Made by a program: the position numbers and the translations under genes. A model generated the notes under the pieces. It ran no database searches. It saw only the letters and a program-made list of their open reading frames with translations, and was not told where the DNA came from. From the NCBI GenBank assembly GCA_963775425.1, contig CAVZJB010000009.1, positions 272,616 to 336,615 of the forward strand: a DNA stretch of 64,000 nt. The letters are read 5' to 3'. The stretch is from an uncultured delta proteobacterium (GTDB taxonomy: Bacteria > Myxococcota > UBA727 > VGSZ01). Below, piece after piece: positions 20,125 through 64,000 of the stretch (position 1 is its first letter; each line of letters begins with the position of its first letter).

Positions 20125-21036
20125 TCACAGCATGCGGCGCCACAGCACGTTGCCGGCGTGCACGTCGACGGCGAGGACCCCCGCGCCCGCCGCCTCGCGC
20201 GCGACGACGAGGATCAGGCTGTCGCCCTCGAGGTGCGCGGCGGCGAGCGCCGCGCCCGGCAGGTCGGGTGCCAGGACCACGTCCCACAGCCGCGCGCCGT
20301 CGGCGGTGCGCACGCCGGCCACGGCCTGCTGCGAGGCGTGGCCCTTGCGGTCCATCTTGTCGTCGTGCCGGAAGAACGCGATGGCGCCGTCGTCCGCCGT
20401 GAGCTGCGCGCTGCTCGCGGCGTCGCCGACGACCTTGGCGTGGATGTACTCCTCGTCGCCGTAGGGCTTCTCCTCGCCCCCGGGCCCGCGCAACAGCCGC
20501 GCGCGCGCCTCGTGACCGGGCTCCACGAGCTCGCCGCCGGGCATCTCGAGGGAGTCGCGGTCAAAGCGCGGCGGCGCCCGGGTCACCCGCACCGCCGACG
20601 TCCGCACCTGCTCGGCGCGTCCGGTGCCGTCCACGCGCCAAGAGGTGCCGCCGGTGGTGGCGTAGTACGCGGCGCCGGTGTCGTCGTCGACGATCGGCGC
20701 GTGGTCCATGAGGTCCTCGAGGTGCACGCCGCGCTGCGCGAGGGTGTCGTCGTCGACGGCGACGGCGCGGGTGGCCGTGGAGAGCGCGTACACCGCGTCC
20801 TTGCGATCCTTGCACCACACGAGCCCGCGCGCCGGGCGGCTGCACTTGAGCGCCGCGGGGATGACGACGGCCACAGGCGCGCTTCGCCCGTCGAGCGGCA
20901 CGAACGATACGCGCGTGGCGTTGCGGCCGGAGCGGCCGAAAGGCTGGTCGCCGGAGCGAACGTGCTCGACGACCGTCGCGAGCGGCGGGTCCTCGGTGAA
21001 CCAGACCGCCTGGACGCGTCCGTGCAGGTGGAACAC
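20125..21036 (-). CDS. hypothetical protein (start unresolved; frame stays open upstream through a TM-like segment)
   Basis: High GC3. The upstream in-frame sequence reads GGPALLLLGIVAAAAWNFAPFGW with no ATG/GTG/TTG, so the true start may be a non-canonical codon or hidden by a sequence error. Confidence 0.45.
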   Translation of the reverse strand: MFHLHGRVQAVWFTEDPPLATVVEHVRSGDQPFGRSGRNATRVSFVPLDGRSAPVAVVIPAALKCSRPARGLVWCKDRKDAVYALSTATRAVAVDDDTLAQRGVHLEDLMDHAPIVDDDTGAAYYATTGGTSWRVDGTGRAEQVRTSAVRVTRAPPRFDRDSLEMPGGELVEPGHEARARLLRGPGGEEKPYGDEEYIHAKVVGDAASSAQLTADDGAIAFFRHDDKMDRKGHASQQAVAGVRTADGARLWDVVLAPDLPGAALAAAHLEGDSLILVVAREAAGAGVLAVDVHAGNVLWRRML

Positions 21037-21154
21037 GCGCGTCTCCCAGCCGAACGGCGCGAAGTTCCACGCGGCGGCGGCGACGATGCCGAGCAGCAGC
21101 AGCGCCGGACCGCCAATCGCAGCTTGTCGGCGAGATCCCCGCGTCCCGCGTTGC

Positions 21155-22690: not shown

Positions 22691-22825
22691 GGGACGACGC
22701 TACTGCGCGGCCGGGGCGACCGGGATCACAGGCCGGACCCGGCCGACACGGATCCGGGCGGGTGGCGCCAAGCCCCGGGCAAGTCCGCGCGGCAGCCCCG
22801 CGCCAACCCCCATGAGGTCCTTTCC

Positions 22826-23614
22826 ATGTCCATGAACGTCCTCGGCCAAAGCGAACGCCCGGCAGGCGCCCTGGCGCTCCCGCTGGCCATCACCGCCCTG
22901 CTCGCGCTCGCCGCTTTGTCGGCCCCCGGCTGCATCGTCTACGACGACCGCGGCGGCGGCAACGACTGGAGCTGGAACGGCGGCGACTGCGGCGCGTGCA
23001 CCGCGAGCGACGACGCCGACGGCGACGGCCTGCCGGACGCCGACGAGCCCGGGTGCAACCTCGACCCCAACAACCCCGACACCGACGGCGACGGCGTCCT
23101 CGACGGCGACGAGGACCTCGACGGCGACGGCTTCACCACGTCGCAGGAGCTGGCCTTCGGCTCCAACTGCGCCGACGGCAGCGACTTCCCCGGCAGCGCC
23201 GGCGAAGGCGAGGGCGAGGGCGATGTCGACGGAGACGTCGACCAGGACGGCGACGGCATGACGGCGAGCGAAGAGGACGAGTGCGGCACGAGCGACTGGT
23301 TCTCGGACAGCGACAACGACGGCGTGCTCGACGTCGACGAGGACCTCGACGGCGACGGCTACAGCAACGCCTGGGAGATCGCGGCCGGGACGAGCTGCTG
23401 GGATCCGACGAGCCACCCGCCGGCGGGCAGCCAGCCCCCCGACGGCGTCGACCCGCCGCCCGCGGACAGCGACCAGGACGGCGTGTCCGACGCCGACGAG
23501 GCCGCCCGCGGCACCGACCCCAACAACCCCGACACCGACGGCGACGGCCAGTGCGACGCCGCCGAGATCGAGTGCGGCAGCTCTCCGCTCGACCCGTTCA
23601 TCACCTGCACCTGA
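22826..23614 (+). CDS. lipoprotein with thrombospondin type-3 (DxDxDG) calcium-binding repeats
   Basis: MSMNVLG...LAALSAPGC lipobox. Multiple DADGDG/DTDGDG/DLDGDG/DSDNDG repeats. gagg SD about 8 nt upstream. Start is residue 717 of ORF 20678..23614 (coordinate arithmetic checked). Confidence 0.75.
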   Translation: MSMNVLGQSERPAGALALPLAITALLALAALSAPGCIVYDDRGGGNDWSWNGGDCGACTASDDADGDGLPDADEPGCNLDPNNPDTDGDGVLDGDEDLDGDGFTTSQELAFGSNCADGSDFPGSAGEGEGEGDVDGDVDQDGDGMTASEEDECGTSDWFSDSDNDGVLDVDEDLDGDGYSNAWEIAAGTSCWDPTSHPPAGSQPPDGVDPPPADSDQDGVSDADEAARGTDPNNPDTDGDGQCDAAEIECGSSPLDPFITCT

Positions 23615-24056: not shown

Positions 24057-27000
24057 TCAGGCCGCGGAGACGTCGACGCGGCTCTTGCCGCCGCCGAGCG
24101 GGACCACGCGGACCTGCGCGCCGATGCGCTCGGCGAGCGCGGGCAGGTGCGAGATGACGCCGATCTGCCGGCCGGTGGCGCGCAGCGCCTCGAGCGCCGC
24201 CAGCGCCGCCTCGAGGGTCTCCGGGTCGAGGCTCGAGAAACCCTCGTCGATGAACAGGGACTCCACCGGCGTCCGCGCCGCCGACAGCGCCGACAACCCC
24301 AGCGCCAAGGACAGCGACACCAAGAAGGTCTCTCCGCCCGACAGCGAGCCCACCGCGCGCGGCTCGTCGCCGCTTTCGCAATCGACGACGACGAGATCGA
24401 GGTCGAAGCGCGCGCGCTTGTCGCCGCCGCCGGCGCGCTCGAGGCGGTAGCGCGGCGCGAGCATCGCGAGCTGCGCGTTGGCGTGCACGAGCAGCGCGTC
24501 GAGCGTGAGGCTCTGCGCGAACACGCGGAAGCGCGCGCCGTCGGCGGAGCCAATCACGTCGCTCAAGCGCTCCCAGGTGAGCGCCCGTGCGCGCTGCGCC
24601 TCGAGCCTCGGGAGGAGCAGCCCCGCGCGCCGCCGCGCATCGTCGTCGCGCGCGAGCGCCGCGCGGGCGCCGGCCCAGCGCTCGGTCGCGACGGCGAGCG
24701 CCGCCCGCGCGTCGTCGACGGTGTCCGGCGCCTGCGCCGGCGCGCCCTCGCCGTGCGCCTGCGCCGCCGACGCGCGCTCCGCGAGCACGGCCTCCGCGCG
24801 GGCGACGGCGTCGTCGAGCGCGCGCACCGCGGCGCGGGCGCGCTCGAGGGCGCCGTCGTCGAGAGCGCAGGCGCGGGCGAGCGCGTGATCGTCGTCGACG
24901 TCGCTGACGTCGCTGACGTCGCTGACGCGCGGCCCGGCGGCGCCGAGGCCCCCGTCGGGGACGGCGGGCCCCCCTCGGGCGAGCCGCCCACCGGGGCGCG
25001 CCGCGCGGCGGGCCGCCTCGAGCGCGGCGCGGGCGTCGTCGTGCGCGCGGCGGGCGCGCTCGTCGCCGTCGAGGGCGCCGGCGCGCCCGGCCTCGGCCTG
25101 GCCGCAGCGCACCTCGGCGGCGGCCAGGGCGACGGCGGCCTCGGCCGCGGCGGCGCGCGCCTCGTCGAGGGCGGCGGTCAGGCGCCCGCGGACCTCGGCG
25201 ACCGACGCGCCGTCGAACAGCGCCGCGCGGGCCCGCAACAGCTCCGCCTCGTGCGCCCGCGCCTCCGCCGCGCGTGACGCCAGCGACGCCTCGCGCTCGG
25301 CGGCGGCGGCGCGGCGCTGCTCGAGCGCGCGCAGGGCGGGCTCGCTGTGCGCGAGCGCGGCCCGGGCGCGCAGCGCGATCTGCTGTTGCGCGCGCAGCCC
25401 CTCGACGCGCGGCTGCAGCGCGCGCAGCAAGGCGCGCGGCGAGGCGAGCGCATCGGCGGACGCGGCGCGCGCGTCCCCCTCCGCGCCGCCGTGCGGATCC
25501 AGGCGCGCGCGCAGAGACGCCGCGCGCTCGTCGCGGGCGACGACGCGGCCCTCGACGTCGTGCACGCGCAGGGCGAGGGCCTGCTCGTCCGCGGCGACCG
25601 CGGCCCCGGCGTCTGCCAACGCGCGCTCCATCGATCGGACGCGCTCGTCCGCGGCGCGCGCCCGGGCGAGCGCCGCGCGGCCGCGGGCGAGGGCGTCTTC
25701 GTCGAGGGCCGGCCCGCGCCGCTCGGCTTCGAGCCGCGCGACGTCCTCGTCGACGCGCGCCTGCTCGCCCGCCGCGTGCGCCAGCGCGCGCTCGATCTCG
25801 GCGGCGCGCGCCCGGGCCGCCGCGGCGCGCTCGCCCTGCCCACGCGCCGCGTCCTCGAGCGCCTCCAGCGGCGCGGCGGGCGCGTCGACCGCGGCGTCGT
25901 CCATCGGCGCGCCGTCGACGGCGGGGTGCGCGCGGCTCCCGCACAGCGGACACGGCTCGCCGTCGCGCAGCCGCGCGCGCCGCGCGCACGAGAGCGCCTC
26001 GCTCGCGCGGGCGCGCGCCTCGTCCGCGGCGCGCGCCTCGTCGACGGCGGCCGCGCGATCTGCGCGCAAGGCCGCGGCGCGGCTGAGCACACGCGCCCGC
26101 TCGGCGTCGAGCGCGCGGCGGTGCATCAAATCGGCCGCGGCCCCGGCGAGGATGCCGGCGGCGTCGTCGACGTCGCCGTCGCCCACCACCGCCGCGAGCG
26201 CCGCGCGCGCCTGGCCCAGCTCCGCGCCGGCGGCCGCGAGGCTCGCCGCCGCTTCGTCGCGCGCCGCGCGGGCCTCGTCCCGGTTGCGGGCCGCCGCGGC
26301 GGCGAACGCGCGCGCGCCCTCGAGCTCGGTGTCGAAGCGCGCGAGCTTGTCGAGGTCTGCCGCCAGCGCCTCCCACGACGGGATCAGCGCCACCAACGAC
26401 GGCTCGCGGGCGAGCACCTCTTCGGCGCGGTGGAGATCGCCGGCCGCCACCGCGCGGCTGACGGTCAGCTCGGCGAGCTCGCGCTCCACGCCGGCGAGCT
26501 CGTCCGCGGCGCGCGCGTGCGCGTCGACGGCGGCGGCGGTGCCGGCGCGCACGATCTGTTCGTCGAGCCGCAGCGCGCGCTCGAGCTCCGGCTCCGCGTC
26601 GGCGAGCACGCGGGCATGGTGGACGAACGCCTCGTCGGCGCGTGCGCGCCGCTCGCGCGCGCTGGCGACGTCGCCGCGCGCCCGTCGCTCGTCGTCACGC
26701 GCGCGCTCCGCCGCCCGCGCCGCACGCTCCGCCGCCGCCCGCGCCGCGCGCTCCGCCGCCGCGGGCGCCCGCAGCGGCCACACCCGCTCGAGCTCCGCGA
26801 GCTCCTGCGCCGCGGGGGCGCTCGCGCGGGCGCGCCGGGCGGCGTCGACGTCGACGGCCGCGGCTGCGGCGGCGCGCTCGAGCTCCAGCGCGCGCTCGTC
26901 GTGCCGCCGGCGCGCCTCGGCCGCCTCGAGCGCCCCTGCGGCGGCGGCGCGCGCGGCGTCGGCGTCGGCGTCGGCGCTCTCGAGGCACCGGCGCTCGTCG

Positions 27001-27687
27001 TCGCCGGCCGGCGGCATGGCGCGCAGCTCGTCCTCGAGGGAGCGCAGCGCGCGCGCCTCCTCCTTGCTGCGCTCGTGGGCCTGCACGGAGAGCGTCGAGT
27101 ACAGATCCGTGCCCGTGATCTTTTCGAGGAGCGCCGCGCGGTCGTCGGCGCGCGCCTTCAAGAAGCTCGCGAAGCCGCCCTGGGCGAGCAGCACCGAGCG
27201 GCAGCACTCGTCGAAGGTGAGGCCGAGGCGGGCGCGGATGTGCTCGAGCGTGTCCTCCTTGCCGTCGCCGGCGCGCTCGCCGGTGACGACGTCATGAAGC
27301 GTGAGCACCTCTTCCTGCAGGCGGCCGAAGGCCTGGCCGCGGGCGCGCCGCACCGTCCAGCGCGCGCGCCACACGCGCCCGTCGACGCCGCTGAAGTCCA
27401 CCTCGGCGAACGCGGTGGCGGCCATCCGGCGCACGAGGCTCTTGGGATCGTTGGCGCGCAGCGACGCGCCGTCCTTCTTGAGCGGAGATCCGCCGCGCCC
27501 CGACAGCCGCGGCGTGCGGTTGAAGAGCGCGAGGCACATCGCGTCGAGGAGCGTGGACTTGCCCGAGCCGACGGGGCCGGCGATGGCGAACAGGCCGAGG
27601 TGGCACAGCGGCGGCTGCGCGAGAATCGACGGCGAAGCCGCCCTTGAGCGACGCGAGGTTGGCGCCGCGGATGGCGAGGATCCTCAC
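24057..27687 (-). CDS. sbcC: SbcC (Rad50-like) ATPase subunit of the SbcCD nuclease, with 1-nt insertion frameshift about 20 codons after the start
   Basis: N-terminus VRILAIRGANLASLKGGFAVD, then after the shift LAQPPLCHLGLFAIAGPVGSGKSTLLDAMCLALF (Walker A). Long coiled coil with CPLCGS zinc hook. C-terminus has SLSGGETFLVSLSLALGL and DEGFSSLD (signature/Walker B). GTGA overlap with sbcD. Confidence 0.85.
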
Positions 27688-28973
27688 GGCCGCTCCCCCT
27701 CGTCGGCGGCCCTCGCCGGCACGGTGGACGGCGGCACCGTGGACGGCGGCACCGTCGACGACGGCGCGACGGCCTCCATCAGCTCGAAGAAGGCGCCGCG
27801 GATGTCGTCCGGGACGGCGCCGCCGTAGGTGCGCTCGTAGAGCCGCTCGAGCACGTGAACGGGCTCGATGTCCTGCAGCGAGGCGGCGGCGGCGACGTCG
27901 GCGAGGGGGCCGCCGTCGCCGGCGAGCGCCCGGTGCACGCGCACGAGCCGCACCGGCTTCCCCTCGAGCGCCGCCTCCACGCGCGCGCGCAGGTCGGGGC
28001 ACGGGGCGTCGAGCTTGACGCGCACCTCGAGGAGCGGCCGCGCGTCGACGGGGGCGTCCGGGAGATCGAGCGCGCGCAGGCGGGCGAGGACGTCGTCGAC
28101 GCCGGCGGCGGCCTCGGGGACGCGCAGCAGGTCGACGGCGCGCGGGACGAAGAGCGGGCGGACGCGGGCCTCGGGGAGGTCGACGACGAGCACCTGGTGG
28201 CGGTAGGCGCGCTCGGTCATCGACAGCGGGATGGGCGAGCCGCTGTAGCGGACGTTGTCGCGGCCGGCGACGTCCTGCGCGAGGTGGAGGTGGCCGAGCG
28301 CGACGTAGTCGACGTCGTCGGGGAAGATGTCGGCGGGGAGCGCGTGGACGTTGCCGAACACGGGGCGCTCGCTGTCCTCCGTGAGGCGCCCGCCCTGCAT
28401 GTGGCAGTGCCCGAGCGCGACGAGCGACTGCCCGGGGTGGCGCCGCGCGCGCGCGTGGTCCAGCACGCGGGCGTAGGCGTCGGCGACGCCGGCGACGACG
28501 GCGTCGCTGACGTCGGCGGGCTGGGGCGCGAGGTCCGCCATGCGCAGGAAGGGCAAGGCGGCGCACCACGCCTCGACGTCGCCGCCGTCACCGGTGAGCG
28601 GAACGACGCAAGACGCCGCGTCCACCTCGCCGGACGCGCGGGGCAGGGCCCCAACGACGTGCACGTCGAGCTCGCGCAGGATGGGGCCGGGCGCATCGAG
28701 GCGCGGCGCGGCGTCGTGGTTTCCGCCGATGACGACGATGTCGAGCCGCGGGAAGCGGCGCCGCGCCTCGGCGAGCCAGCGGTAGTACTGCGACTGCGCG
28801 GACGCGGGGGCGTTGCCGGTGTCGAAGACGTCGCCGCAGACGACGACGGCGTCGGCGCGCTCGTCCTCGATGCGATCGAGCAGCCACGCCATGAAGCGCT
28901 GGTGCTCCACGGCCCGCGAGAAGCCGCCGAGGGTCTGCCCCAGGTGCCAGTCGCCGGTGTGGATCAGCCGCAA
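27684..28973 (-). CDS. sbcD: SbcD (Mre11-like) nuclease subunit
   Basis: MRLIHTGDWHLG, GNHD, GHxH phosphoesterase motifs. C-terminal STVPPSTVPPSTVP repeat. Confidence 0.85.
   Translation of the reverse strand: MRLIHTGDWHLGQTLGGFSRAVEHQRFMAWLLDRIEDERADAVVVCGDVFDTGNAPASAQSQYYRWLAEARRRFPRLDIVVIGGNHDAAPRLDAPGPILRELDVHVVGALPRASGEVDAASCVVPLTGDGGDVEAWCAALPFLRMADLAPQPADVSDAVVAGVADAYARVLDHARARRHPGQSLVALGHCHMQGGRLTEDSERPVFGNVHALPADIFPDDVDYVALGHLHLAQDVAGRDNVRYSGSPIPLSMTERAYRHQVLVVDLPEARVRPLFVPRAVDLLRVPEAAAGVDDVLARLRALDLPDAPVDARPLLEVRVKLDAPCPDLRARVEAALEGKPVRLVRVHRALAGDGGPLADVAAAASLQDIEPVHVLERLYERTYGGAVPDDIRGAFFELMEAVAPSSTVPPSTVPPSTVPARAADEGERP
27711..27755. repeat. 3 x 15-nt tandem repeat (accgtggacggcggc) within the sbcD 3' end
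   Basis: Seen directly; encodes (STVPP)3. Confidence 0.6.
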
Positions 28974-55138: not shown

Positions 55139-57064
55139 TCACAGGGTCTTGAGGAACGCGACGAGGTCGGCCTTGTCCTGGAAGGACAGGTTGGAGCCGT
55201 GGCCCATCTTGTCGGTGGCCACCAGGCGCTCGACGACGTCCTCGAGCGTGGCCGCGGAGCCGTCGTGCAGGTACGGCGCGCTCTCGATGAGCCCGTGCAG
55301 CACCGGCGTGGCGAACTCCGAGGACCAATCGAGGTTGTCGCCGCCGGTGCCGACGCTGTGGGTGAGGTTGTCGGTGAAGGCGTCGCCGGCGTGGCACTGG
55401 CCGCAGCCGGCGCTGCCGTAGAACAGCTCCTCGCCGTGGGCGACGGCCTGCGCGTCGAGGCCGCTCGGCGGCATGGGTGCCGGGATCTGGTCGAGGAATT
55501 TGCCGACCTTGTTCATGGCGGTGGCGTCGAGGCCGTTGCCGCCCATGCGGCCCACGATGGTGACGTCGCTGATGCCGGCCATGTTCGGCACGCTCTGATC
55601 CCAGTGGAAGGGCTCGGTGCCGAGGATGCCGCCCCACAGCGCGGGCGCGTTGCGCGGGCCCTCGGCGAAGTGCCAGGTGGTGCCGTCGGGGCCGCCGCCC
55701 GGGTGGCAGGAGTCGCAGGAGATGGCGCCGAACTTCGTGAGGTCGTCGTTGACGCTGTAGAAGAGCACGCGGCCCTCACGCACGTCGGCGGGCAGCACGG
55801 GCGCCGCAACGGTGAACGTGTTGTCGACGGAGATCTTCTTGAGCGCGCCGGCGCTGCCCCCGGCGTAGCGAGACTTGGCCGAGGCGTCGGCCGGCACCGC
55901 GAAGCTCGAGATGGTGTCGTCGAAGGCGTTGTAGACGTACGCCGTGGTCCCGTCGGGGGAGACCTGGATGGACTCGACGCCGACCTTCAGCGGCACCACC
56001 GCGACGATGGACGGCTCGCCCTCGCCGATCACCGGCCGGCGCACGATGACGTTGCCCGAGCCGCGCGCGACCACGAGCTGGAGCTTGCCGCCGTCGACGG
56101 TGGCGATCTCCTGCGGCCCGTTGAAGGTCTCGTCGTGCAGGAGGTTGCGGTTGAGCGCGTCGACCACGGGCGCGGCGTCACCGGCGTGCTCGGGGGCGCT
56201 GCCGTTGGCCTCCTCGAGGGGCCGGTTCTCGTCGGACAAGAGCGAGCCCGACGCCGGGTCCACGCGGCTGACGGCCGGGTTCACCGCCGGGTAGCCCGTG
56301 GGGCCGTCGACGTAATACGTGACCGAGGGCTGACCGGCGAAGTTGGTGCCGCCGAGGAACTGGGCCGGGTCGTTGTTGCACTCGACGTGGGGGACGACGA
56401 CGCCGTCGCCGTCCGCGCTCGCGGTGATGCTCCCCATCTGGTTGGGGAAGAAGAACTGCTTGGAGGGCAGGTGCATGTCGACGTCGGCCGCGACGTTGTC
56501 GCCGTCGATGATGGACACGTAGCCCGCGGTGAAGTGGGTGACGGCGACGCGGCCGTCCTCGAGGCGCACGATGCCGCGCGGGTCGCCGTGGTGGAGCGTG
56601 ATGCGCGAAGCGACGCGCGTCGGATCCGCGAGGTCGATGCGCGCGAGGTCGCCCTCGCCGGCGACGGCGACGAGCACGGCGTGACCGACCTGAACGAGGC
56701 CGAAGGGATCGCTGCCGACGTCGGCGGTGCCGTCCACGGTGCCCTTCTCGACGTTCACCACCGAGACGGTGCCGGCGTAGCGCGCGCTCACGGCGACGCG
56801 GCCGTCGTCGAGGACGGTGAGGCGGTGGGGATACCCGGGCACCGCGACCTCGCCGAGCTTGGCGCCGCTGTGGGCGTCGACGGCGCGCACCAGGTCATGG
56901 TCGGCGAGGGCGACGTAGAGAGTCTTTCCGTCCTTGGAGATCTGCATGCGGCCGGTCTGCGGCGCGCTCGCCGGACCGATCTTCACGTCGGGCTCGCAGC
57001 CCGATGCCAGCGAGAGGGAGAGCAGCGCGATGGGTACGGCGACGGCGAGGTGTCGAACGAGCAT
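55139..57064 (-). CDS. lipoprotein: beta-propeller (YVTN-type repeats) fused to C-terminal di-haem cytochrome c peroxidase-like domain
   Basis: Lipobox LSLASGC. Repeated LYVA / VAVS / VSVVNV beta-propeller strands. Two CxxCH motifs (CDSCHPG, CGQCHAG) about 90 aa apart. Confidence 0.7.
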   Translation of the reverse strand: MLVRHLAVAVPIALLSLSLASGCEPDVKIGPASAPQTGRMQISKDGKTLYVALADHDLVRAVDAHSGAKLGEVAVPGYPHRLTVLDDGRVAVSARYAGTVSVVNVEKGTVDGTADVGSDPFGLVQVGHAVLVAVAGEGDLARIDLADPTRVASRITLHHGDPRGIVRLEDGRVAVTHFTAGYVSIIDGDNVAADVDMHLPSKQFFFPNQMGSITASADGDGVVVPHVECNNDPAQFLGGTNFAGQPSVTYYVDGPTGYPAVNPAVSRVDPASGSLLSDENRPLEEANGSAPEHAGDAAPVVDALNRNLLHDETFNGPQEIATVDGGKLQLVVARGSGNVIVRRPVIGEGEPSIVAVVPLKVGVESIQVSPDGTTAYVYNAFDDTISSFAVPADASAKSRYAGGSAGALKKISVDNTFTVAAPVLPADVREGRVLFYSVNDDLTKFGAISCDSCHPGGGPDGTTWHFAEGPRNAPALWGGILGTEPFHWDQSVPNMAGISDVTIVGRMGGNGLDATAMNKVGKFLDQIPAPMPPSGLDAQAVAHGEELFYGSAGCGQCHAGDAFTDNLTHSVGTGGDNLDWSSEFATPVLHGLIESAPYLHDGSAATLEDVVERLVATDKMGHGSNLSFQDKADLVAFLKTL

Positions 57065-57331: not shown

Positions 57332-58552
57332 TCAGTCCGCCTGCGGCGGTTCCTCTTCGCTCGCCCGCCGCGTGCGCACCCAGGCGTCGGAGCGCTTCCA
57401 GGGACGGGCGACCACGAGCTTCCACAAGACGTACGCCGGCGCCGTCAGCAGAGCGAAGAGGCCGGCGACGCCGGTGCCGGAGAACGCCACGCCGCGCAGG
57501 ACGTAGGCCGCGAGCGACAGCGTCGACAGCGCCCACAGCGGCCACGCCGGCGACGGCCCGCCGGCGACGAAGACGTGGGCGCCCTCGACGGCGAGGCCGG
57601 CGACGACGACGAGCGCGGGGTACGAGATCGGCGGGACCATGAGGTCGCAGGCGAGATTGAAGAGCAGCAGCGAGCGCTGCGCCACCGCCGCCTTCAGCAC
57701 GCGCGGGAGGAGCGTGCGCATCAGGCCGAAGCGGCCGCCCTCCCAGCGGCGCCGCTGCGACAGCGCGGTCCCGGCGCTCACCGGCGCGTCGGAGCGGATC
57801 CACGTCTCCGGAGCGAACGCCACGCGGACGCCGTTCATCCCGAGCCGCACGCCGTACTCGACGTCCTCGACGACGCCGTACACCTCGTGCGGCACGCGCT
57901 CGAGGCACTCCCGTGAAAAGGCCATGCCCGTGCCGCGCAGCCCGACCGAGAGGCCGAGCCGCTCGCGCCCGAGCGAGCGCACGCCGTTGATCATCGCCAT
58001 CGCGATGGCCTGCAGGCGCGGCCGCCAGCCCGCGCCCGGGTTCTTCACGGCGTTTTCGACCTGCATCGCGAGGTCGCCGGCGACCACGCGGGCGCCCACC
58101 GCGCGCCAGAGGTTGCCGGCGACGATGGTGTCGGCGTCGACGACGATGACGCCCTCGACGCGCTCGTCGCCCTCGAGCGCCAGCGCGTGCGCGAACGCGG
58201 CCTCGAGCGCGTAGCCCTTGCCGCGGCGCACGTCGTCCCTGCGCTCGAGCACGCGGGCGCCGGCCTCGCGGGCGAGGGTGGCGGTGTCGTCGGTGCAGTT
58301 GTCGGCGACGACGAGGACGATCTTCTTGTCCGCGGGCGCGTCCGCGGCGAGCAGGCTCTTCACCGTGGCCGCGATGCCGTCCTTCTCGTTGTGCGCCGGC
58401 ACCACGCAGACGAGGCGCGGCGTGTCTGCGTCGGCGGGGGCCGGCGGAGGCCGCTTGCGCCACGACAGGAGCGTGAGGAACCCGAGGTACAGCCACACCG
58501 GCAACACGGCGACGGCGAGCACCCACGAGAGGACCTCGAGCGCCGCCGGCAT
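57332..58552 (-). CDS. family 2 glycosyltransferase, membrane-integrated (processive GT2-like)
   Basis: CVVPAHNE, VVADNCTDDT, VVDADT (DxD) motifs. N- and C-terminal TM segments. Start MPAAL is residue 19 of ORF 57332..58606. Confidence 0.75.
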   Translation of the reverse strand: MPAALEVLSWVLAVAVLPVWLYLGFLTLLSWRKRPPPAPADADTPRLVCVVPAHNEKDGIAATVKSLLAADAPADKKIVLVVADNCTDDTATLAREAGARVLERRDDVRRGKGYALEAAFAHALALEGDERVEGVIVVDADTIVAGNLWRAVGARVVAGDLAMQVENAVKNPGAGWRPRLQAIAMAMINGVRSLGRERLGLSVGLRGTGMAFSRECLERVPHEVYGVVEDVEYGVRLGMNGVRVAFAPETWIRSDAPVSAGTALSQRRRWEGGRFGLMRTLLPRVLKAAVAQRSLLLFNLACDLMVPPISYPALVVVAGLAVEGAHVFVAGGPSPAWPLWALSTLSLAAYVLRGVAFSGTGVAGLFALLTAPAYVLWKLVVARPWKRSDAWVRTRRASEEEPPQAD

Positions 58553-58599
58553 CACCGCACGTTCTCGTCGAGGCCGTGTGCGCGCCGCATGGCGGGAGC

Positions 58600-59721
58600 A
58601 TGCCATCGGCCGGCGCGGCGCGGAAACGAGAAGCGCGCGGTGTCCGCGACGGCGGCGGGGCGTCGGGCACGGCGTGGTACGCTCGCGCGGTGGGGCACGG
58701 CACCGTCGTCGCGATCGTGGCCGTCGTCGTCGCCGGCGAGGGCTGCGCGGGCTGCAACGGCACGTTCACCCTGTCGTGCGCCGCCTCCACCGACTGCCCC
58801 GACGGCCTGTCCTGCGCCCCCGACGACATCTGCCGCCCCCATGACGCCGGCTCCGGCGACGGCGGCCCCCCCGTCGACACAGGCCCCACGGGCGACGGCG
58901 GCTCCCCCGGCGACGGCGGCCCCGTCGACGGCGGGCCCCCCGTCGACGGCGGCGAGGGCGAGGGAGAAGGAGAGGGCGAGGGGGAAGGCGAGCAGAGCGC
59001 CGCGAGCTGCGCCGCCGCGCTCGCCGCCGACCCGGCCGCGCCGAGCGGCATCTATCGCATCGGCGGCGCCGGCGTCGAGTGCGACATGACCACAGCGGGC
59101 GGCGGCTGGGCGCTCTTGTTCCGCTTCGACGCGCAGACGGACGACTGCCCCGCGGGGCTCGTCCGCGACGCCGCCAGCGGGGGCTGCGGACGCCCGCTGG
59201 ACGCGGCGCAGACGTCGCTGTTCCTGCCCGCGCCCGAGCCCTTCACGGAGCTGCGCGGCGAGGTCCGCGCGCTCGGCTTCGGCTCGCCCGACGCGTTCTT
59301 CGACACCGCGCCCACCATCGACGGCAACTACGGCGACGGCATCAGCTTCACCGTGGACTCGCCGCGCGTCCACGTCTTCACCCTCGCCCACGCCATCGCC
59401 GACGGCGCGAGCGGGTTCACCGTCCATCGCTGTCCGTGCGCGGGCGGAGATCCCCCGCCGGGCTTCGTCGGCACCGCCTACCTCTGCGAGGCGGCCACCA
59501 CCGCGTTCGTCGGCGGCGCGCGCACGCTCGACACCACCGACGTCCTGTGGGACGGGGCCGATCTCTTCCCGGGATGCGAAGGCGCGCCCGAGTCCGCGCC
59601 CGACTTCCAGGTCGCGCTCGCGGCCGAGGACCCCGGCCCCGTCGAGTTGCGCATCCTCCACAACGAGGTGAGCAGCGACGAGGACACGTACATCACCCGC
59701 GCGGAGCTCTGGGTGCGCTGA
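58600..59721 (+). CDS. secreted protein with (GE)n linker and fibrinogen-related-like domain
   Basis: Signal VVAIVAVVVAGEGCAGC. GGEGEGEGEGEGEGEQ linker. IYRIGGAGVECDMTTAGGGWALLFRF resembles the FReD core (YCDM.TDGGGWTV). Start ambiguous (58576/58600/58693). Confidence 0.55.
   Translation: MPSAGAARKREARGVRDGGGASGTAWYARAVGHGTVVAIVAVVVAGEGCAGCNGTFTLSCAASTDCPDGLSCAPDDICRPHDAGSGDGGPPVDTGPTGDGGSPGDGGPVDGGPPVDGGEGEGEGEGEGEGEQSAASCAAALAADPAAPSGIYRIGGAGVECDMTTAGGGWALLFRFDAQTDDCPAGLVRDAASGGCGRPLDAAQTSLFLPAPEPFTELRGEVRALGFGSPDAFFDTAPTIDGNYGDGISFTVDSPRVHVFTLAHAIADGASGFTVHRCPCAGGDPPPGFVGTAYLCEAATTAFVGGARTLDTTDVLWDGADLFPGCEGAPESAPDFQVALAAEDPGPVELRILHNEVSSDEDTYITRAELWVR
58951..58992. repeat. (GGCGAG)n repeat encoding a GE linker
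   Basis: ggcgagggcgagggagaaggagagggcgagggggaaggcgag seen directly. Confidence 0.5.
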
Positions 59722-59989
59722 CATACGCGCGCTGCGCGGCCTGCGCCGACGACGCGCGGCCGAGCTGCTCCCGCAGCGTCCGCTCCGCCGCGCCGGCGGC
59801 GACGGTGCACGCGTGGACGAGCCGGAGCAGCACCGTCCGGTCCTCGAGCGTGAGGCGGCAGAGGCCGGCCTGCGCGCACGCGGTGGTCGCGGCCTCGAGC
59901 GCTTCGCCCGCACCGACGACGTCGCCCTCGGCGAGCTTCTGCTGTGCGTGCGCGAGCCGATCGCGCAGGTGCTCCTCGACGCGCGTCAT
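59693..59989 (-). CDS. small helical hypothetical protein in the fliT position of the flagellar operon
   Basis: ATGA overlap with the fliS stop. 98 aa, Ala/Leu-rich. High GC3. Confidence 0.4.
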   Translation of the reverse strand: MTRVEEHLRDRLAHAQQKLAEGDVVGAGEALEAATTACAQAGLCRLTLEDRTVLLRLVHACTVAAGAAERTLREQLGRASSAQAAQRAYVSAPRAPRG

Positions 59990-60366
59990 GGTTGCGGTCG
60001 CCCGGCGCGCGCGACCGCCTCTTCGAACGCCTCGGCGATCGGGTTGAAGGTGCGACGCGCGTCGTCGAGGGCGGCGCGGTCGCCGCGCAACGAGACGTAG
60101 AGCCGGGTGAGAACGAAGCCGTAGACGTCGTCGAGCATGGTGCACAGCTCGGGGGCCTTCGACGGATCGAGCGTGGACCGGAGCTCGTGCACGATGTCGA
60201 TGGCCTTGCGCACCGGCGTCGCCGCCTGCGCGGCGCGACCGAGGGCGAGCTCGCCGTCGGCGAGGAACATCTGCTTGCGCGCACCCGCGAGCAAGAGGAG
60301 CAGCACGCGCTCCTTCGACGCAGTGGCCGTCTGAGTTTCTTGATAGCGCGCCGACGGCAACATCAC
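59986..60366 (-). CDS. fliS: flagellar export chaperone FliS
   Basis: RYQETQTATASKERVLLLLLAGARKQMFLADGELALGRAAQAA...IDIVHELRSTLD matches FliS. ATGA overlap with fliD. Confidence 0.8.
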   Translation of the reverse strand: MMLPSARYQETQTATASKERVLLLLLAGARKQMFLADGELALGRAAQAATPVRKAIDIVHELRSTLDPSKAPELCTMLDDVYGFVLTRLYVSLRGDRAALDDARRTFNPIAEAFEEAVARAGRPQP

Positions 60367-61700
60367 CCACCTCCGTTGTTCTTGCTCGCGGTCTCCTGGC
60401 TGGTGAGGAAGTTGCCGATGGCCTTCAGGCCGCTCAGCACCTTCTCCATCGCCGCGAACTGCGCGACGAGTCGCGCGCGGTACTGATCCGCGCGGTCCTG
60501 CAGTTGCGTGATCTGATCGCCGACGCGCTTCTTCTTGTCCGCGAGGCCCTGGCTGCGCACCGTGAGCGCGCCGTTGACCGAGTCGGTGAACGCGTTGACG
60601 AGGTCGTCGGCGGCGGGCTTGAGCCCGGCGAGGATGCGATCGGCGGCGCCGGGATCCGACGCGACCGCCTTGTCGAACGCCGCGTCGTCGATGGTGACCT
60701 TGCCGTCGCGGTCGCTCTTGAGCCCCAGGTCCGCGAGCGTACGCATCCCGGTCGAGCCCACCGCCGTCGTCAACAGCGCCTGCATGCGCGCCTGCACCAG
60801 GCGCATGGTGGGGTCGCCGCCGAGGGTCTTCGTGCGGTCCGTGTTGGCGTGGATGTCGAGCTCACCCTGCACCGCGCCGACGATGGTGTTGTAGGCGTCG
60901 ACGAGCTTCTGCAGCGAGGCTTTGGTCTGGTCGCCGTCGTCGGCGATGACGATGTCCTCGGGACCGGTGCTGACCTGTTTGAGCGAAAGCGTGGCGCCGG
61001 GGAGGGCGTCGTCGATCTCGTTGGTGCGGCGCTCGAAGGCGAGGCCGTCGAGGGTGAGCTTGGCGTTTTGCGCCGTCACCACCGTCGAGAAGCCGAGCGC
61101 GTCGGCGGTGGTCCCCGAGAGCGTGAGGGCGCTGTCGGGCGTGGAGCCGACCTCGAAGCCCGACGTCGTGCGCGCCACGCTCAGGTAGTCGCTGGTGCCG
61201 TCGTTGAGGACGTTGGCGGTGACGGGCGCGCCGCTCGCGCGGATGGCGGAGGCGAGGTCACCGAGGCTCATGCCGTCGGTCACGTCGATGTCGTAGCCGG
61301 TGCCGTCGGCGTCGATGTGCAGCGTGCCTGCCGACAGGAGGGCCGACGTGCTCTGCGCCGCGCTCCGGCTCTTGGCCGCTTGCGCGAGCTGCGAGACCTC
61401 GAGGGTGGTGCGGCCGGCGCTCGCGCCGGGGGACGCGGTGACGTCGGCGGCGGCGGGCGCCTGCGCGACGCGCGCGCCGTGCGCGCCGGTGTCGACGAGA
61501 CCGTGGAGCGCGGTCTGGAAGGCGAGGAGGTTCGAGCGGAGCGACCCGATCGACGAGATCTGCACGTCGATGGCGGTCTGGCTCTGCTGGAGGGTGGCGA
61601 TCGGCTTGCTTTGCAGAGAGACGAGCTGATCCACGATGGACGCGGTGTCGATCCCGGACGCGAGGCCGCTCGCTTGGAATGACGGAATCGTCGTGGACAT
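60363..61700 (-). CDS. fliD: flagellar filament cap protein FliD (hook-associated protein 2)
   Basis: MSTTIPSFQASGLASGIDTASIVDQLVSLQ N-terminus and C-terminal coiled-coil segments typical of FliD. Confidence 0.85.
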   Translation of the reverse strand: MSTTIPSFQASGLASGIDTASIVDQLVSLQSKPIATLQQSQTAIDVQISSIGSLRSNLLAFQTALHGLVDTGAHGARVAQAPAAADVTASPGASAGRTTLEVSQLAQAAKSRSAAQSTSALLSAGTLHIDADGTGYDIDVTDGMSLGDLASAIRASGAPVTANVLNDGTSDYLSVARTTSGFEVGSTPDSALTLSGTTADALGFSTVVTAQNAKLTLDGLAFERRTNEIDDALPGATLSLKQVSTGPEDIVIADDGDQTKASLQKLVDAYNTIVGAVQGELDIHANTDRTKTLGGDPTMRLVQARMQALLTTAVGSTGMRTLADLGLKSDRDGKVTIDDAAFDKAVASDPGAADRILAGLKPAADDLVNAFTDSVNGALTVRSQGLADKKKRVGDQITQLQDRADQYRARLVAQFAAMEKVLSGLKAIGNFLTSQETASKNNGGG

Positions 61701-61778
61701 GGCGCTCTCCAAGAGGGGTGAACGAGGACGAAGCCGCCGCACGGATCACCCGGGTCCGTGCGGCGGCTTCAGGAGCGC

Positions 61779-62645
61779 TCAGCCGAGGAGCTTGAGGGCG
61801 AGCTGGGGCGCCTGGTTCGCCTGGGCGAGCACCGAGACGCCGGCCTGCACGAGGATCTGCGCGCGGCTCATCTCCGCCGTCTCCGAGGCGACGTCGACGT
61901 CGCGGATGCGGCTGTTGGCGGCGGACACCGACTCGGACGCGCTGGCGATGGTCGACAGCGCGCTCGTGAGGTGGTTGGCGGAGGCGCCGAGGTCGGCGCG
62001 GAAGCCGGAGACCTCGTTGATGGCCTGGTCGATGACCGCGAGCGCGGACTGCGACTGCGTCGCGCTGGTGGCGAGGTCGGCCGCGCCGCCCGTCTTCAGG
62101 GTCGCGATCGCCGAGCCGCCGCCGCCGGTGCCGAGGGCCGCCGTGGTGACCGCCATGCCGGTGGTGTCCACCTTGATGACGTCGTTGGCGGTGCCGCGGA
62201 TGCCGACCTGGAACTGGAACGCCGCCGCGGCGCCGTAGACCTTCACGCCGTTGAACTCGGTGGTGGCGCCGATGCGGTCCACCTCGGCGAGCAGCGAGTC
62301 CGCCTCGCTCTGGATGTAGCCCCGCTCGGTGGTGCCGATGCCGTCCGAGGCCGACTGCATGGCGAGCTCGCGGACGCGGGTGAGGATGTTGGTCACCTCG
62401 TTGAGCCCTGCCTCGGCGGTCTGCGTGACCGAGATGCCGTCGTTGGCGTTGCGCGAAGCCTGGTCATAGCTCTTGAGCTGCGCGGTCATGTTCGCGCTCA
62501 CGCCGAGGCCGGCTGCGTCGTCGGACGCCTTGGTGATGCGGTAGCCGGAGGAGAGCTTGGCGAGCGAGGAATCGAGCGAGCTCTGATTCATCATCAAGCT
62601 GTGCTGCGCGGCGAGGGACGAGAGGTTGCTGCGGATGGACATCAT
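61779..62645 (-). CDS. fliC: flagellin
   Basis: Conserved flagellin N- (MMSIRSNLSSLAAQ...LSSGYRI) and C-terminal (SRAQILVQAGVSVLAQANQAPQLALKLLG) helices. gaaggag SD about 8 nt upstream. Confidence 0.9.
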   Translation of the reverse strand: MMSIRSNLSSLAAQHSLMMNQSSLDSSLAKLSSGYRITKASDDAAGLGVSANMTAQLKSYDQASRNANDGISVTQTAEAGLNEVTNILTRVRELAMQSASDGIGTTERGYIQSEADSLLAEVDRIGATTEFNGVKVYGAAAAFQFQVGIRGTANDVIKVDTTGMAVTTAALGTGGGGSAIATLKTGGAADLATSATQSQSALAVIDQAINEVSGFRADLGASANHLTSALSTIASASESVSAANSRIRDVDVASETAEMSRAQILVQAGVSVLAQANQAPQLALKLLG

Positions 62646-62831
62646 GGCGGGGCTCCTTCTTTCTGCTGAGCATTTCGTTCGTGTGTGCTCACGGAGAGGT
62701 TCGTCACGGCGCGGGCCCTGATTAAGATCTGCGTCGCCGGATCAACCCGCGCGGACGAATTCGCCGCACAAAAGAGCGCAAGGACGGAGCGAGCCCCGTC
62801 CTCATCACCGCGGCGCGGACCCGCGGGGTCA

Positions 62832-63708
62832 CAGCTTGTCGAGGATGGTGAGCTGGAAGCTCTTGGCGCTCACGGTCAGCGCGGCGTCGAGCGAGCGCTC
62901 GGCGAACGCGAGAATCCGTCGCCGCCTTCGCGATGTCGGCGTCGGTCAGGCCGGCGCGCCTGCCGTCGGCCGCGTCCGCCACGTCGCCCGCGGCGGTCTG
63001 CGCGGCGTCCAGGCCGAGCTCGATGCCGCCGGCGTCGGCGCGGCCGGCGCCGACCTGCGCGATGCCCGAGCGCAGCGTGTCGATGCTCGCGCGCAGCCCC
63101 GTGGTGTCGTTGGTGGACAGCGCGGTGGCCAGGTCGCCGAGGGCCTGGAGGACGTCGACGCCGCCGCCGGCGCCCTTGATGACGACGTCGGCGCGCACGG
63201 ACACGCCCTGCACCACGCCGGGCGCGACCTCGATCTGCCGGACGCCGGCGTCGCCGGTGTAGCTGCCGTCGGCCTGGAACGGGGCCGCGTTGTCGACGGT
63301 GCCGCCCATGACGAAGCGGCCGCCGACGTCGATGTTCAACGCGCTCACGGCTTCGGCCAGCATCTGCGTCGCCTGGCTCGCGGCGCTCGCGCGATCCGCG
63401 CTGTTGTAGGTGCCGTTCGACATCTGGATCGCGAGCTGCTGCGCGCGCGAGAGCGTGTTGATCACCGACGACAGCGCGCCGTCGGCGGCGTTGACGTCGT
63501 CAAGCGCCCGTGACGTCGTGGTCGAGATGCCCGAAGCGCGCACCGCGGCGAAGCGCTCGCGCGCGATCTGCCCCGCGGAGTCCGTCTCCCAGGGGTGCCG
63601 CACGGAGACGCCGGTGGAGGCGCGGTCGGTGGCCTTCTCGTAGCGCTCGCGCGCGGTCTGCGTCGCGGCGTTCGCGTTGGCGAAGATGGAGCTATCAGTG
63701 ACGCGCAC
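62832..63708 (-). CDS. flgL: flagellar hook-associated protein 3 FlgL, disrupted by 1-nt insertion near the 3' end
   Basis: N-terminus MRVTDSSIFANANAATQTAR. After ...AKAATD the listed ORF reads junk (SRVRRALARRR...), but removing one T at gat|t|ctc gives the canonical C-terminus LAFAERSLDAALTVSAKSFQLTILDKL* ending at about 62832. Confidence 0.8.
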
Positions 63709-63711
63709 GGG

Positions 63712-64000
63712 CTACCTCAACTCCAGGAGGCCTTTGAGCATGTCGTCCGCCGTGGACAACACCTTGCCCACGGCGTCGAACACGCGCTGCGCCTTCGTCA
63801 TCTCGATCATCTCTTCGTCGATGGAGACACCCGACGCCGACTCGCGCAGGGACAACAGTTGATCGCGCGCGGCCGCCGACGCGTCGCGCTCGCTGAGCGC
63901 GCTCCTGGCGACGGCGCCGAAGTCGTCGATGGCGGAGGCGACCGTGCTCACGGTGGCGTCCTCGCCGGCGAGGAGCGCGAGCGCCTGGCTGCCGTCGCCT
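63712..64000 (-). CDS. flgK: flagellar hook-associated protein 1 FlgK, C-terminal part (gene continues beyond window end)
   Basis: C-terminus ...EEMIEMTKAQRVFDAVGKVLSTADDMLKGLLELR* is FlgK-like. The frame is open to the window edge. Confidence 0.6.
   Translation of the reverse strand, partial: GDGSQALALLAGEDATVSTVASAIDDFGAVARSALSERDASAAARDQLLSLRESASGVSIDEEMIEMTKAQRVFDAVGKVLSTADDMLKGLLELR

What the first reader, a model, noticed from the sequence alone, without database searches (positions are those of the whole stretch)
58576..59721. Fibrinogen-related-domain-like secreted protein in a bacterium
After a signal peptide and a GEGEGE linker, the protein contains IYRIGGAGVECDMTTAGGGWALLFRF. This closely resembles the FReD core (vYCDMeTDGGGWTViQrR) of animal fibrinogen, ficolin and tenascin C-terminal domains. 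FReDs are uncommon in bacteria and can mediate glycan or host binding.

The gene sits divergently next to a membrane GT2 glycosyltransferase.
Basis: partly seen in the sequence, partly recalled or inferred. Interest (0 to 1): 0.5.

Follow-up and report, generated by a model that had tools for sequence, protein, structure and literature searches.

The report
Fibrinogen-like cap on a beta-sandwich head
This bacterial gene encodes an exported protein whose first ~45 domain residues really are related to animal fibrinogen-type domains, but the other ~80% of the domain is predicted to be a different, cysteine-stabilised beta-sandwich, so it is an already-catalogued but uncharacterised kind of surface binding protein and not a true fibrinogen-related domain.

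Summary
ORF 58576-59721(+) encodes a hydrophobic N-terminal segment, one Cys-rich repeat, a Gly/Pro/Asp plus (GE)n linker and a 242-aa C-terminal domain containing IYRIGGAGVECDMTTAGGGWALLFRF.

The motif is not chance. NCBIfam NF040941, "fibrinogen-like YCDxxxxGGGW domain", scores 40.5 bits against a cutoff of 30.

- Pfam Fibrinogen_C gives no hit.
- Sequence similarity to FReDs, intelectins and collagen C-propeptides stops after about 40-65 residues.

The whole domain defines a large family that Pfam does not cover. The bacterial members appear to be mostly Myxococcota-like. Other members look eukaryotic and sit on collagen or coiled-coil stalks. Fusion partners found were adhesin or lectin modules plus one proprotein-convertase P-domain; no catalytic domain was found.

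The GT2 neighbour is real and EpsU-like, but none of three homologue contexts has a GT2 next to the gene.

Most likely function: a surface-displayed ligand-binding head, probably for a glycan. This is inferred, not shown.

The parts
58576..59721 (+). CDS of the exported 'fibrinogen-like YCDxxxxGGGW' protein. It is 381 aa from GTG 58576. Alternative starts are ATG 58600 (373 aa) and GTG 58690 (343 aa). The stop codon is 59719-59721.
   Evidence: ORF list and DNA. GAGG lies 4 nt upstream of GTG 58576. Homologues P0001-P0004 share 34-57% identity. It is the only copy in the window.
58705..58740 (+). Hydrophobic N-terminal segment TVVAIVAVVVAG (residues 44-55): a signal peptide or membrane anchor, followed by EGCAGC.
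   Evidence: Kyte-Doolittle 9-residue maximum is 3.7 and there is no canonical lipobox. Of 47 bacteria-like relatives with an N-terminal extension, 37 have such a stretch and 26 have a loose lipobox-like Cys. Export is inferred, not predicted by a dedicated tool.
58744..58833 (+). Cys-rich stalk repeat (residues 57-86, CAGCNGTFTLSCAASTDCPDGLSCAPDDIC).
   Evidence: Weak match to TIGR04201 Myxo_Cys_RPT (E 0.63, below cutoff). The same C..DC..G..C....C unit occupies the same position in P0002-P0004 and many relatives.
58834..58992 (+). Low-complexity acidic Gly/Pro/Asp plus (Gly-Glu)n spacer (residues 87-139).
   Evidence: 33-36-nt repeats at 58836-58953 and (GGCGAG)7 at 58951-58992. Homologues have GEGEGE- or DAG-type linkers of variable length.
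58993..59130 (+). N-terminal 'FReD-type' module of the C-terminal domain (residues 140-185; domain positions 1-46). It comprises a helix, two short strands and the GGGW strand, and contains C145 and C169 (domain C6 and C30).
   Evidence: NF040941 scores 40.5 bits against a cutoff of 30 on residues 144-181. PDB profile hits to intelectins, FReDs and COLFI are confined to profile positions about 2-65. hhalign gives 59 columns with human intelectin-1 and 38 columns with COLFI. Secondary structure H6-12, E19-23, E26-31, E39-46.
59131..59718 (+). Body of the domain (residues 186-381): a jelly-roll beta-sandwich with six further conserved cysteines and the invariant or near-invariant residues Y113, D115, G116, H127, R220, E230 (domain numbering).
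57332..58606 (-). Divergent neighbour: a GT2 glycosyltransferase, EpsU-like. Its likely true start is ATG 58552. It is context only and is probably not part of the same functional unit.
   Evidence: Pfam Glyco_tranf_2_3 1.7e-22. NCBIfam EpsU 361.7 bits (cutoff 700), aligned from residue 29 to profile position 6. No GT2 was seen beside the homologues P0003, P0001 or L002.

Best explanation
The gene encodes an exported, probably cell-surface-tethered or secreted, modular protein. From N to C terminus it has a hydrophobic leader, one disulfide-knotted Cys repeat, a flexible acidic Gly/Pro/Asp/Glu spacer and a 242-residue globular head.

The head is a composite. Its first ~45 residues are a small disulfide-clamped module homologous to the N-terminal piece of fibrinogen-related domains, intelectins and fibrillar-collagen C-propeptides. 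The other ~195 residues are predicted to form a jelly-roll beta-sandwich. Three further disulfides probably hold it together: C52-C65, C147-C165 and C149-C195 in domain numbering.

The protein belongs to the family NCBI names 'fibrinogen-like YCDxxxxGGGW domain-containing protein'. It is not a canonical FReD.

The most likely mechanism is that the spacer holds the head away from the cell and the head binds an extracellular ligand, most probably a polysaccharide or glycoconjugate. A cluster of invariant polar residues (Y113, D115, H127, R220, E230) may form the binding or metal site. The N-terminal module would then be a structural cap rather than the binding site.

Shown: the domain architecture, the extent of homology, the predicted fold, and the family's breadth and fusion partners. 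Inferred: export, disulfide pairing, ligand binding and ligand class.
For: Architecture and conservation.

Membership of NF040941: 40.5 bits against a cutoff of 30. 47 of 51 family members also match at E<=0.001.

Homology is limited to the N-terminal module:
- Pfam Fibrinogen_C and COLFI matches in relatives, where printed, cover only profile positions 2-58 and 9-73. 22 and 8 of 51 members hit these two families.
- PDB profile matches stop at position ~65.
- hhalign aligns 59 columns with intelectin-1 and 38 with COLFI.

Fold:
- AF2 pLDDT 94.2, pTM 0.91, with all five models at 91.8-94.2.

Extracellular binding role:
- Relatives carry the domain at the C-terminal end of proteins with C-type lectin, Laminin_G_3, Big_9, cadherin-like, PKD, TSP type-3 and MopE Cys-repeat modules. 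One carries a proprotein-convertase P-domain. No catalytic domain was found.
- Eukaryote-like members place it after collagen triple-helix repeats and coiled coils. To my knowledge this is the position the recognition heads occupy in ficolins and C1q-type proteins.

Eight conserved cysteines, all present in 99 of 102 sequences, fit an oxidising extracytoplasmic location.

The window protein lacks a canonical lipobox or a predicted cleavage site, and its start codon is ambiguous.

There is no conserved gene neighbourhood to suggest a pathway.

The head could instead act mainly in oligomerisation, as COLFI does.
Confidence: 0.6

Rival explanations
1. It is a bona fide fibrinogen-related domain (a ficolin- or tenascin-type lectin domain) acquired from animals.
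For: The YCDM...GGGW segment is significantly similar to FReDs. The family profile finds tachylectin-5A, tenascins, angiopoietins, ficolins and fibrinogen beta and gamma chains at 4e-6 to 1e-2. 22 of 51 family members hit Pfam Fibrinogen_C.
Against: - This protein gives no PF00147 hit at E<=1.
- The FReD matches printed cover only the first ~45-58 of 221 positions.
- In a crude NJ tree the diverse bacteria-like sequences form the deep backbone, and the eukaryote-like ones form a single derived clade. That argues against recent import from animals.
Confidence: 0.04
2. It is a bacterial counterpart of the fibrillar-collagen C-propeptide (COLFI/NC1). On this view the N-terminal module plus a beta-sandwich body would serve mainly to oligomerise (trimerise) chains.
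For: - 8 of 51 members hit Pfam COLFI, best 3.7e-10.
- hhalign against a COLFI alignment gives E 1.1e-9.
- Some eukaryote-like members follow collagen repeats.
Against: - Sequence similarity covers only 38 columns and ends before the GGGW strand.
- The Z and TM values are no better than for unrelated jelly rolls.
- The window protein has no collagen or coiled-coil stalk to assemble.
- This protein gives no COLFI Pfam hit.
Confidence: 0.15
3. It works together with the divergently transcribed EpsU-like GT2, for example by binding, anchoring or sensing the exopolysaccharide that enzyme makes.
For: The two genes are adjacent and divergent, and their longest ORFs share a 5' region. The GT2 resembles the M. 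xanthus EPS enzyme EpsU. The head has a CBM-like fold.
Against: None of three homologue contexts has a GT2 next to the gene. P0003 lies next to lectin-type genes and a radical-SAM gene. P0001 lies among two-component and efflux genes. L002 lies next to rpoC and a NUDIX gene. On its other side the window gene is convergent with fliS.
Confidence: 0.12
4. It is a toxin or predation effector whose beta-sandwich is a receptor-binding domain, like those of Cry, Vip and binary toxins or of phage baseplate proteins.
Against: To my understanding those hits fall on the CBM-like receptor-binding domains of the toxins. No pore-forming or enzymatic module is present in this protein or in the relatives scanned.
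Confidence: 0.07

Closest known systems
NCBIfam NF040941 (GGGWT_bact), 'fibrinogen-like YCDxxxxGGGW domain-containing protein'
   Same: The window protein scores above the curated cutoff (40.5 against 30 bits). So do most of its family: 47 of 51 match at E<=0.001. NCBI already gives this name to homologue P0004.
   Different: The model covers only 46 residues. It says nothing about the ~195-residue body, which no Pfam or NCBIfam model covers. I found no publication or function for it.
Intelectins / X-type lectins (human ITLN1, Xenopus XEEL)
   Same: This is the best sequence match of the N-terminal module: E 2.8e-10 to 2.6e-9 for the profile, and hhalign E 5e-11 over 59 columns, running through the strand after GGGW to the next Cys. 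The design principle is the same: a short fibrinogen-related segment followed by a different C-terminal glycan-binding body (PMC8213764).
Canonical fibrinogen-related domains (ficolins, tachylectin-5A, tenascin, angiopoietin, fibrinogen beta/gamma C; Pfam PF00147)
   Same: The helix, the two short strands, the Cys...YCDM disulfide positions and the GGGW strand are shared.
   Different: The B and P subdomains, which to my knowledge carry the Ca2+ site and ligand pocket in FReDs, are replaced by a jelly roll.
Fibrillar procollagen C-propeptide (COLFI/NC1; PDB 5k31, 4ae2, 6fzv)
   Different: Only 38 columns align by sequence. The window protein has no collagen stalk. The structural scores are marginal.
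Jelly-roll carbohydrate-binding modules (a porphyran-binding CBM 8xmz, CBM16 2zew, CBM36, CBM22, CBM6)
   Different: Identity is 4-12% and no sequence-family match exists. The fibrinogen-type cap and the four disulfides are extra. The domain is not appended to any glycoside hydrolase in the relatives scanned.

Membership tests
Fibrinogen-related domain (Pfam PF00147 Fibrinogen_C) | Significant match to the PF00147 profile over most of its 221 positions | tested here: not met
   No hit at E<=1 for the window protein. In relatives the matches printed cover only positions 2-58.
Fibrinogen-related domain (Pfam PF00147 Fibrinogen_C) | N-terminal A-subdomain signature: Cys, then ~20-25 residues, then (Y)CDM, then GGGW(T) strand | tested here: met
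   Residues 145-184. NF040941 E 2e-10. The profile matches about 50 FReD chains at 4e-6 to 1e-2. The predicted helix plus three strands fit.
Fibrinogen-related domain (Pfam PF00147 Fibrinogen_C) | B and P subdomain fold carrying the Ca2+ site and ligand pocket | tested here: not met
NCBIfam NF040941 GGGWT_bact | Score above the curated cutoff of 30 bits | tested here: met
   40.5 bits for the full protein and 40.7 bits for the domain.
Intelectin / X-type lectin | Fibrinogen-like N-terminal segment | tested here: met
   XEEL E 0.009 with the single sequence and 2.8e-10 with the profile. hhalign against ITLN1 gives E 5e-11 over 59 columns.
Intelectin / X-type lectin | Intelectin C-terminal Ca2+-dependent glycan-binding body | tested here: not met
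COLFI / fibrillar collagen NC1 (Pfam PF01410) | Significant match to PF01410 over the domain | tested here: not met
   No hit for the window protein. Relatives match only positions 9-73 of 233. hhalign against a 24-sequence COLFI alignment covers 38 columns.
COLFI / fibrillar collagen NC1 (Pfam PF01410) | Same body fold | tested here: inconclusive
COLFI / fibrillar collagen NC1 (Pfam PF01410) | Lies C-terminal to a collagen triple helix | tested here: not met
   No collagen repeats in the window protein. They are present in the eukaryote-like relatives P0181 and P0072.
Carbohydrate-binding module (jelly-roll type) | Beta-sandwich jelly-roll fold | tested here: met
Carbohydrate-binding module (jelly-roll type) | Sequence membership of a described CBM family | tested here: not met
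   No Pfam CBM hit in the window protein or in 51 relatives.
Carbohydrate-binding module (jelly-roll type) | Demonstrated carbohydrate binding | not testable with these tools
   This needs glycan arrays or binding assays.
Bacterial lipoprotein | Lipobox [LVI][ASTVI][GAS]C after a hydrophobic leader | tested here: inconclusive
   The window protein has ...VVVAGEGCAGC, with no strict or loose lipobox at that position. 10 of 47 relatives have a strict lipobox and 26 of 47 a loose one. No LipoP or SignalP was available.

The most novel reading that the evidence does not exclude
The ~45-residue 'YCDM-GGGW' unit may be an independently mobile cap module of bacterial origin, not a fragment of the fibrinogen domain. 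Evolution would then have joined it to at least four different bodies: FReD B/P, the intelectin body, the collagen C-propeptide, and the Cys-rich jelly roll seen here. On this reading the jelly-roll family is a previously undescribed, ancient extracellular recognition domain. It would be shared between Myxococcota-type bacteria and marine-invertebrate-like eukaryotes, which mount it on collagen or coiled-coil stalks as they do ficolin and C1q heads.
Probability: 0.3. Interest if true: 0.6.

Novelty: new member of a known kind. Interest (0 to 1): 0.35.

Why it matters
For this window the result is mainly corrective. The gene should be annotated as a 'fibrinogen-like YCDxxxxGGGW domain-containing' exported protein, not as a ficolin-like FReD. 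Lectin specificity cannot be inferred from the motif.

At family level it is more interesting.
- The whole 242-residue head defines a large family. 429 representatives of 50%-identity clusters score E<=1e-30, although some of the best scores come from giant proteins that repeat only the N-terminal module.
- No Pfam model covers the body, and it has a confidently predicted fold.
- Its partners are adhesin and lectin modules.
- It seems to occur in both Myxococcota-like bacteria and eukaryotes.

The family bears on how FReDs, intelectins and collagen C-propeptides came to share one N-terminal module. It also offers a tractable, small, disulfide-stabilised candidate lectin for structural and glycan-array work.

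Tried and rejected
Searches that failed or found nothing:
- afdb50 fold search: the library was not available. No comparison with AlphaFold DB annotations was possible.
The 5-sequence alignment worked, but it uses only two peptide patterns, so its counts are lower bounds.
- Exact look-ups of the window protein with three alternative starts found nothing on record. The source organism therefore remains unnamed.
- The word-indexed protein search found only 4 and then 14 relatives, with almost no names. The exhaustive profile search was needed.
- Literature searches for bacterial FReD-like proteins, myxobacterial fibrinogen-like proteins, the GGGWT motif and the COLFI fold found nothing specific. 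Doolittle et al. 2012 is not held.

Ideas tested and rejected:
- Homology of the body to COLFI or intelectin. Profile-profile alignments stop at 38 and 59 columns.
- A conserved operon with the GT2.
- A second copy in the window.
- A promoter or terminator around the gene. The consensus scans were uninformative at 76% GC.

Limits:
Disulfide pairing and the putative site rest on conservation and co-loss only.

Full report
**1. What is in the sequence**

Counted from the first GTG, the product is 381 aa.

Its parts, from N to C terminus:
- A long N-region, followed by a very hydrophobic stretch, TVVAIVAVVVAG (residues 44-55; Kyte-Doolittle 3.7).
- One Cys-rich unit, C..C.......C.....C.....C.....C (residues 57-86). 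It weakly resembles the myxococcal Cys repeat TIGR04201 (E 0.63, below cutoff).
- A low-complexity spacer of GDGGPPVD-type repeats and (Gly-Glu)7. The spacer is encoded by 33-36-nt repeats at 58836-58953 and (GGCGAG)7 at 58951-58992.
- A 242-residue C-terminal domain that begins ...SCAAALAADPAAPSGIYRIGGAGVECDMTTAGGGWALLFRF.

The start codon is ambiguous. GTG 58576 has GAGG 4 nt upstream. ATG 58600 and GTG 58690 are the alternatives. The longest ORFs of this gene and of the divergent GT2 overlap by 31 nt at their 5' ends. The GT2 therefore probably starts at ATG 58552, because its EpsU alignment begins at residue 29 against profile position 6.

The window is 70-81% G+C. It has Myxococcota-like features:
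- the closest relatives of the target come from MAGs labelled Deltaproteobacteria or Myxococcota;
- the GT2's best match is EpsU;
- a neighbouring gene gives weak hits to MXAN-type models.

**2. Is the motif more than chance?**

Yes.
- NCBIfam NF040941 (GGGWT_bact, "fibrinogen-like YCDxxxxGGGW domain-containing protein") matches residues 144-181 at E 2.1e-10 and 40.5 bits, above its curated 30-bit cutoff.
- With the single sequence, the best solved-structure match is the Xenopus intelectin XEEL (E 0.009, residues 136-182). Tenascin-R follows at E 2.5.
- With a 51-sequence family profile, intelectins reach 2.8e-10 to 2.6e-9. About fifty FReD chains (tachylectin-5A, tenascins, angiopoietins, ficolins, FIBCD1, MFAP4, fibrinogen beta and gamma) reach 4e-6 to 1e-2. 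Procollagen C-propeptides reach about 8e-3.

**3. How far does the similarity go?**

It covers only the first 40-65 residues of the domain.
- Pfam Fibrinogen_C gives no hit to the window protein even at E<=1.
- In relatives that do hit PF00147, the matches printed cover positions 2-58 of 221. Several of the same stretches also hit COLFI, at positions 9-73 of 233. Of the 51 aligned members, 22 hit Fibrinogen_C and 8 hit COLFI.
- Every PDB match with the profile ends by profile position ~65.
- Profile-profile alignment gives 59 columns with human intelectin-1 (E 5e-11), 38 columns with the COL1A1 C-propeptide (E 1e-6), and 38 columns with a 24-sequence COLFI alignment (E 1.1e-9).

The shared element is therefore a small module: a helix, two short strands, the Cys...CDM disulfide positions and the GGGW strand. 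It is not a whole fibrinogen domain.

**4. Fold of the rest**

The first AlphaFold run used 5 sequences and was confident only for residues 1-95 (pLDDT 61 overall).

An exhaustive profile search then found the family to be large. It returned 7114 cluster representatives at E<=1e-3, which includes true FReDs matched through the module. 429 scored E<=1e-30, and about 100 of the top 150 match the whole domain.

With a 51-sequence alignment (A3) the model reached pLDDT 94.2 and pTM 0.91. All five models scored 91.8-94.2.

The topology is H6-12, E19-23, E26-31 and E39-46 for the module, followed by nine more strands.

- Reelin sub-repeats, phage baseplate proteins and the CBM-like domains of Cry and Vip toxins.

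Foldseek against the PDB found nothing at E<=1e-3. The best TM-scores are to procollagen C-propeptides (0.40, probability 0.96). Ficolins score 0.25-0.27.

**5. The family**

In the 102 full-domain sequences aligned:
- The eight cysteines (domain positions 6, 30, 52, 65, 147, 149, 165, 195) are all present in 99.
- G116 and H127 are invariant.
- Y113, R220, D115, W39 and E230 are nearly invariant.
- The only two sequences lacking C149 also lack C195, which suggests that these two pair.

By analogy with FReDs (my own knowledge), C6-C30 is the module disulfide. That leaves C52-C65 and C147-C165. This pairing is inferred.

No Pfam model matches the body in any of 51 members. NF040941 matches 47 of 51, through the module only.

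Fusion partners:
- In bacteria-like relatives: C-type lectin, Laminin_G_3, Big_9, cadherin-like, PKD, thrombospondin type-3 repeats, MopE-type Cys repeats and a proprotein-convertase P-domain.
- No catalytic domain was found.

Of 47 bacteria-like members with an N-terminal extension, 37 have a hydrophobic leader and 26 have a lipobox-like Cys.

A second subgroup looks eukaryotic. The evidence is as follows:
- It has 14 or more cysteines, N-glycosylation-type sequons, classical signal peptides, and collagen triple-helix repeats (P0181, 69 bits) or coiled coils ahead of the domain.
- It sits on contigs of 0.7-2 Mb at 37-40% G+C. One of these carries four tandem paralogues.

Its taxonomy could not be confirmed.

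In a crude midpoint-rooted NJ tree, the window protein groups with P0002, P0003 and P0010. The diverse 8-10-Cys bacteria-like sequences form the deep backbone. The eukaryote-like sequences form one clade beside a 12-Cys bacteria-like subgroup. This pattern does not suggest recent import of an animal gene into this bacterium. However, labels were assigned by amino-acid composition and the tree has no support values.

**6. Context**

The divergent neighbour 57332-58606(-) is a GT2 resembling EpsU. Downstream, and convergent with the target, lies fliS (Pfam FliS 1.1e-20). It is followed by ORFs that read like fliD, flagellin, flgL and flgK (these were not scanned).

None of three other contexts of family members has a GT2 next to the gene:
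- P0003 lies after a MopE plus C-type-lectin gene and before a radical-SAM gene.
- P0001 lies among two-component and efflux genes.
- L002 lies between a NUDIX/SnoaL gene (itself next to rpoC) and unannotated ORFs.

I therefore treat the GT2 adjacency as probably coincidental.

**7. Mechanism**

Shown:
- a modular architecture with a hydrophobic leader, and a Cys-rich, disulfide-type head at the end of a flexible acidic spacer;
- a head fold of the CBM/lectin jelly-roll class, capped by a module shared with three extracellular families, two of which (FReDs and intelectins) are lectins;
- relatives whose other modules are adhesin or lectin modules, or trimeric stalks.

Inferred:
- the protein is displayed on, or released from, the cell surface;
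- its head binds an extracellular ligand, most probably a glycan;
- the invariant polar cluster (Y113, D115, H127, R220, E230) is the candidate binding or metal site;
- the N-terminal module is structural.

In FReDs and intelectins the ligand sites lie outside this module (my own knowledge; PMC8213764 describes intelectin as a fibrinogen-related domain plus a C-terminal glycan-binding domain). I put the structural classification at about 0.85 and the ligand-binding role at about 0.5. Overall confidence is 0.6.

**8. Comparison and novelty**

The protein is a member of the catalogued but uncharacterised NF040941 group. NCBI already names homologue P0004 this way.

It is not a member of PF00147, of the intelectins or of COLFI, because defining features of each were tested and not met.

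It works like a lectin or adhesin head and is built on the same plan as intelectin and COLFI: a shared cap on a different body.

For the window itself this is a new member of a known kind. At family level the Pfam-uncovered jelly-roll body, and its apparent presence in both bacteria and eukaryotes, are moderately interesting.

Noticed in passing
P0005 (4522 aa), P0006, P0007, P0017, P0083, P0095: Giant proteins carry 9-15 copies of only the ~50-residue N-terminal module, mostly spaced ~200-280 residues apart. Each copy hits Pfam Fibrinogen_C or COLFI only at the N-terminal profile positions (best printed stretches 4-58 and 24-70). P0007 is from the amoebozoan Phalansterium solitarium (EukProt). 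The sequence between the modules was not identified.
   Followed up: partly
L082:1372-9008 (ENA ERZ25072724, 2.0-Mb contig, 37% GC): Four tandem, apparently intronless paralogues of the full domain family lie ~2.5 kb apart in gene-sparse, low-GC DNA. This looks like a eukaryotic gene-family expansion. L081 holds a collagen-repeat plus coiled-coil plus domain gene next to a DDE_1 transposase-like ORF.
   Followed up: partly
window 24057-27539 (-) and 27684-28973 (-): The G+C peak of 79-81% at 24-28 kb coincides with a 1160-aa ORF that reads like SbcC, with a very long Ala/Arg/Glu-rich coiled coil. It is followed by an SbcD-like nuclease ORF. Both were identified by reading the translations only.
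   Followed up: no
window ~22800-23614 (+), C-terminal part of ORF 20678-23614: Another probable lipoprotein (leader ...LSAPGC) has Asp-rich DxDxDG repeats of thrombospondin type-3 style and a GEGEGEGD linker. The same acidic Gly-Glu spacer style is thus used in other exported proteins of this genome. On the opposite strand, 21155-22690 encodes a lipoprotein-like ORF with beta-helix-type repeats.
   Followed up: no
window 59986-63951 (-): A flagellar filament cluster lies convergent with the target gene. fliS is confirmed by Pfam. ORFs reading like fliD (60363-61742), flagellin (61779-62645), flgL (62722-63708) and the end of flgK follow. This is notable in a genome whose other features look Myxococcota-like, a group not usually flagellated.
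   Followed up: partly
window 55139-57064 (-): A 641-aa exported protein combines a beta-propeller (YVTN/PQQ-like repeats) with a C-terminal di-haem cytochrome c peroxidase/MauG-like region. It gives weak matches to hydrazine-synthase subunits and MbnH-family models, all far below their cutoffs.
   Followed up: partly
window 58552-58606: The longest ORFs of the target gene (+) and the GT2 (-) overlap by 31 nt at their 5' ends. The EpsU alignment suggests the GT2 starts at ATG 58552. That would leave a divergent intergenic region of 23 to 137 nt, depending on the target's start.
   Followed up: partly
context of P0003 (JGI 3300047160): The closest full-length homologue lies directly downstream of a 519-aa MopE-repeat plus C-type-lectin protein and a 540-aa protein with no Pfam hit. 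This hints at small clusters of eukaryote-like lectin genes in these bacteria.
   Followed up: no
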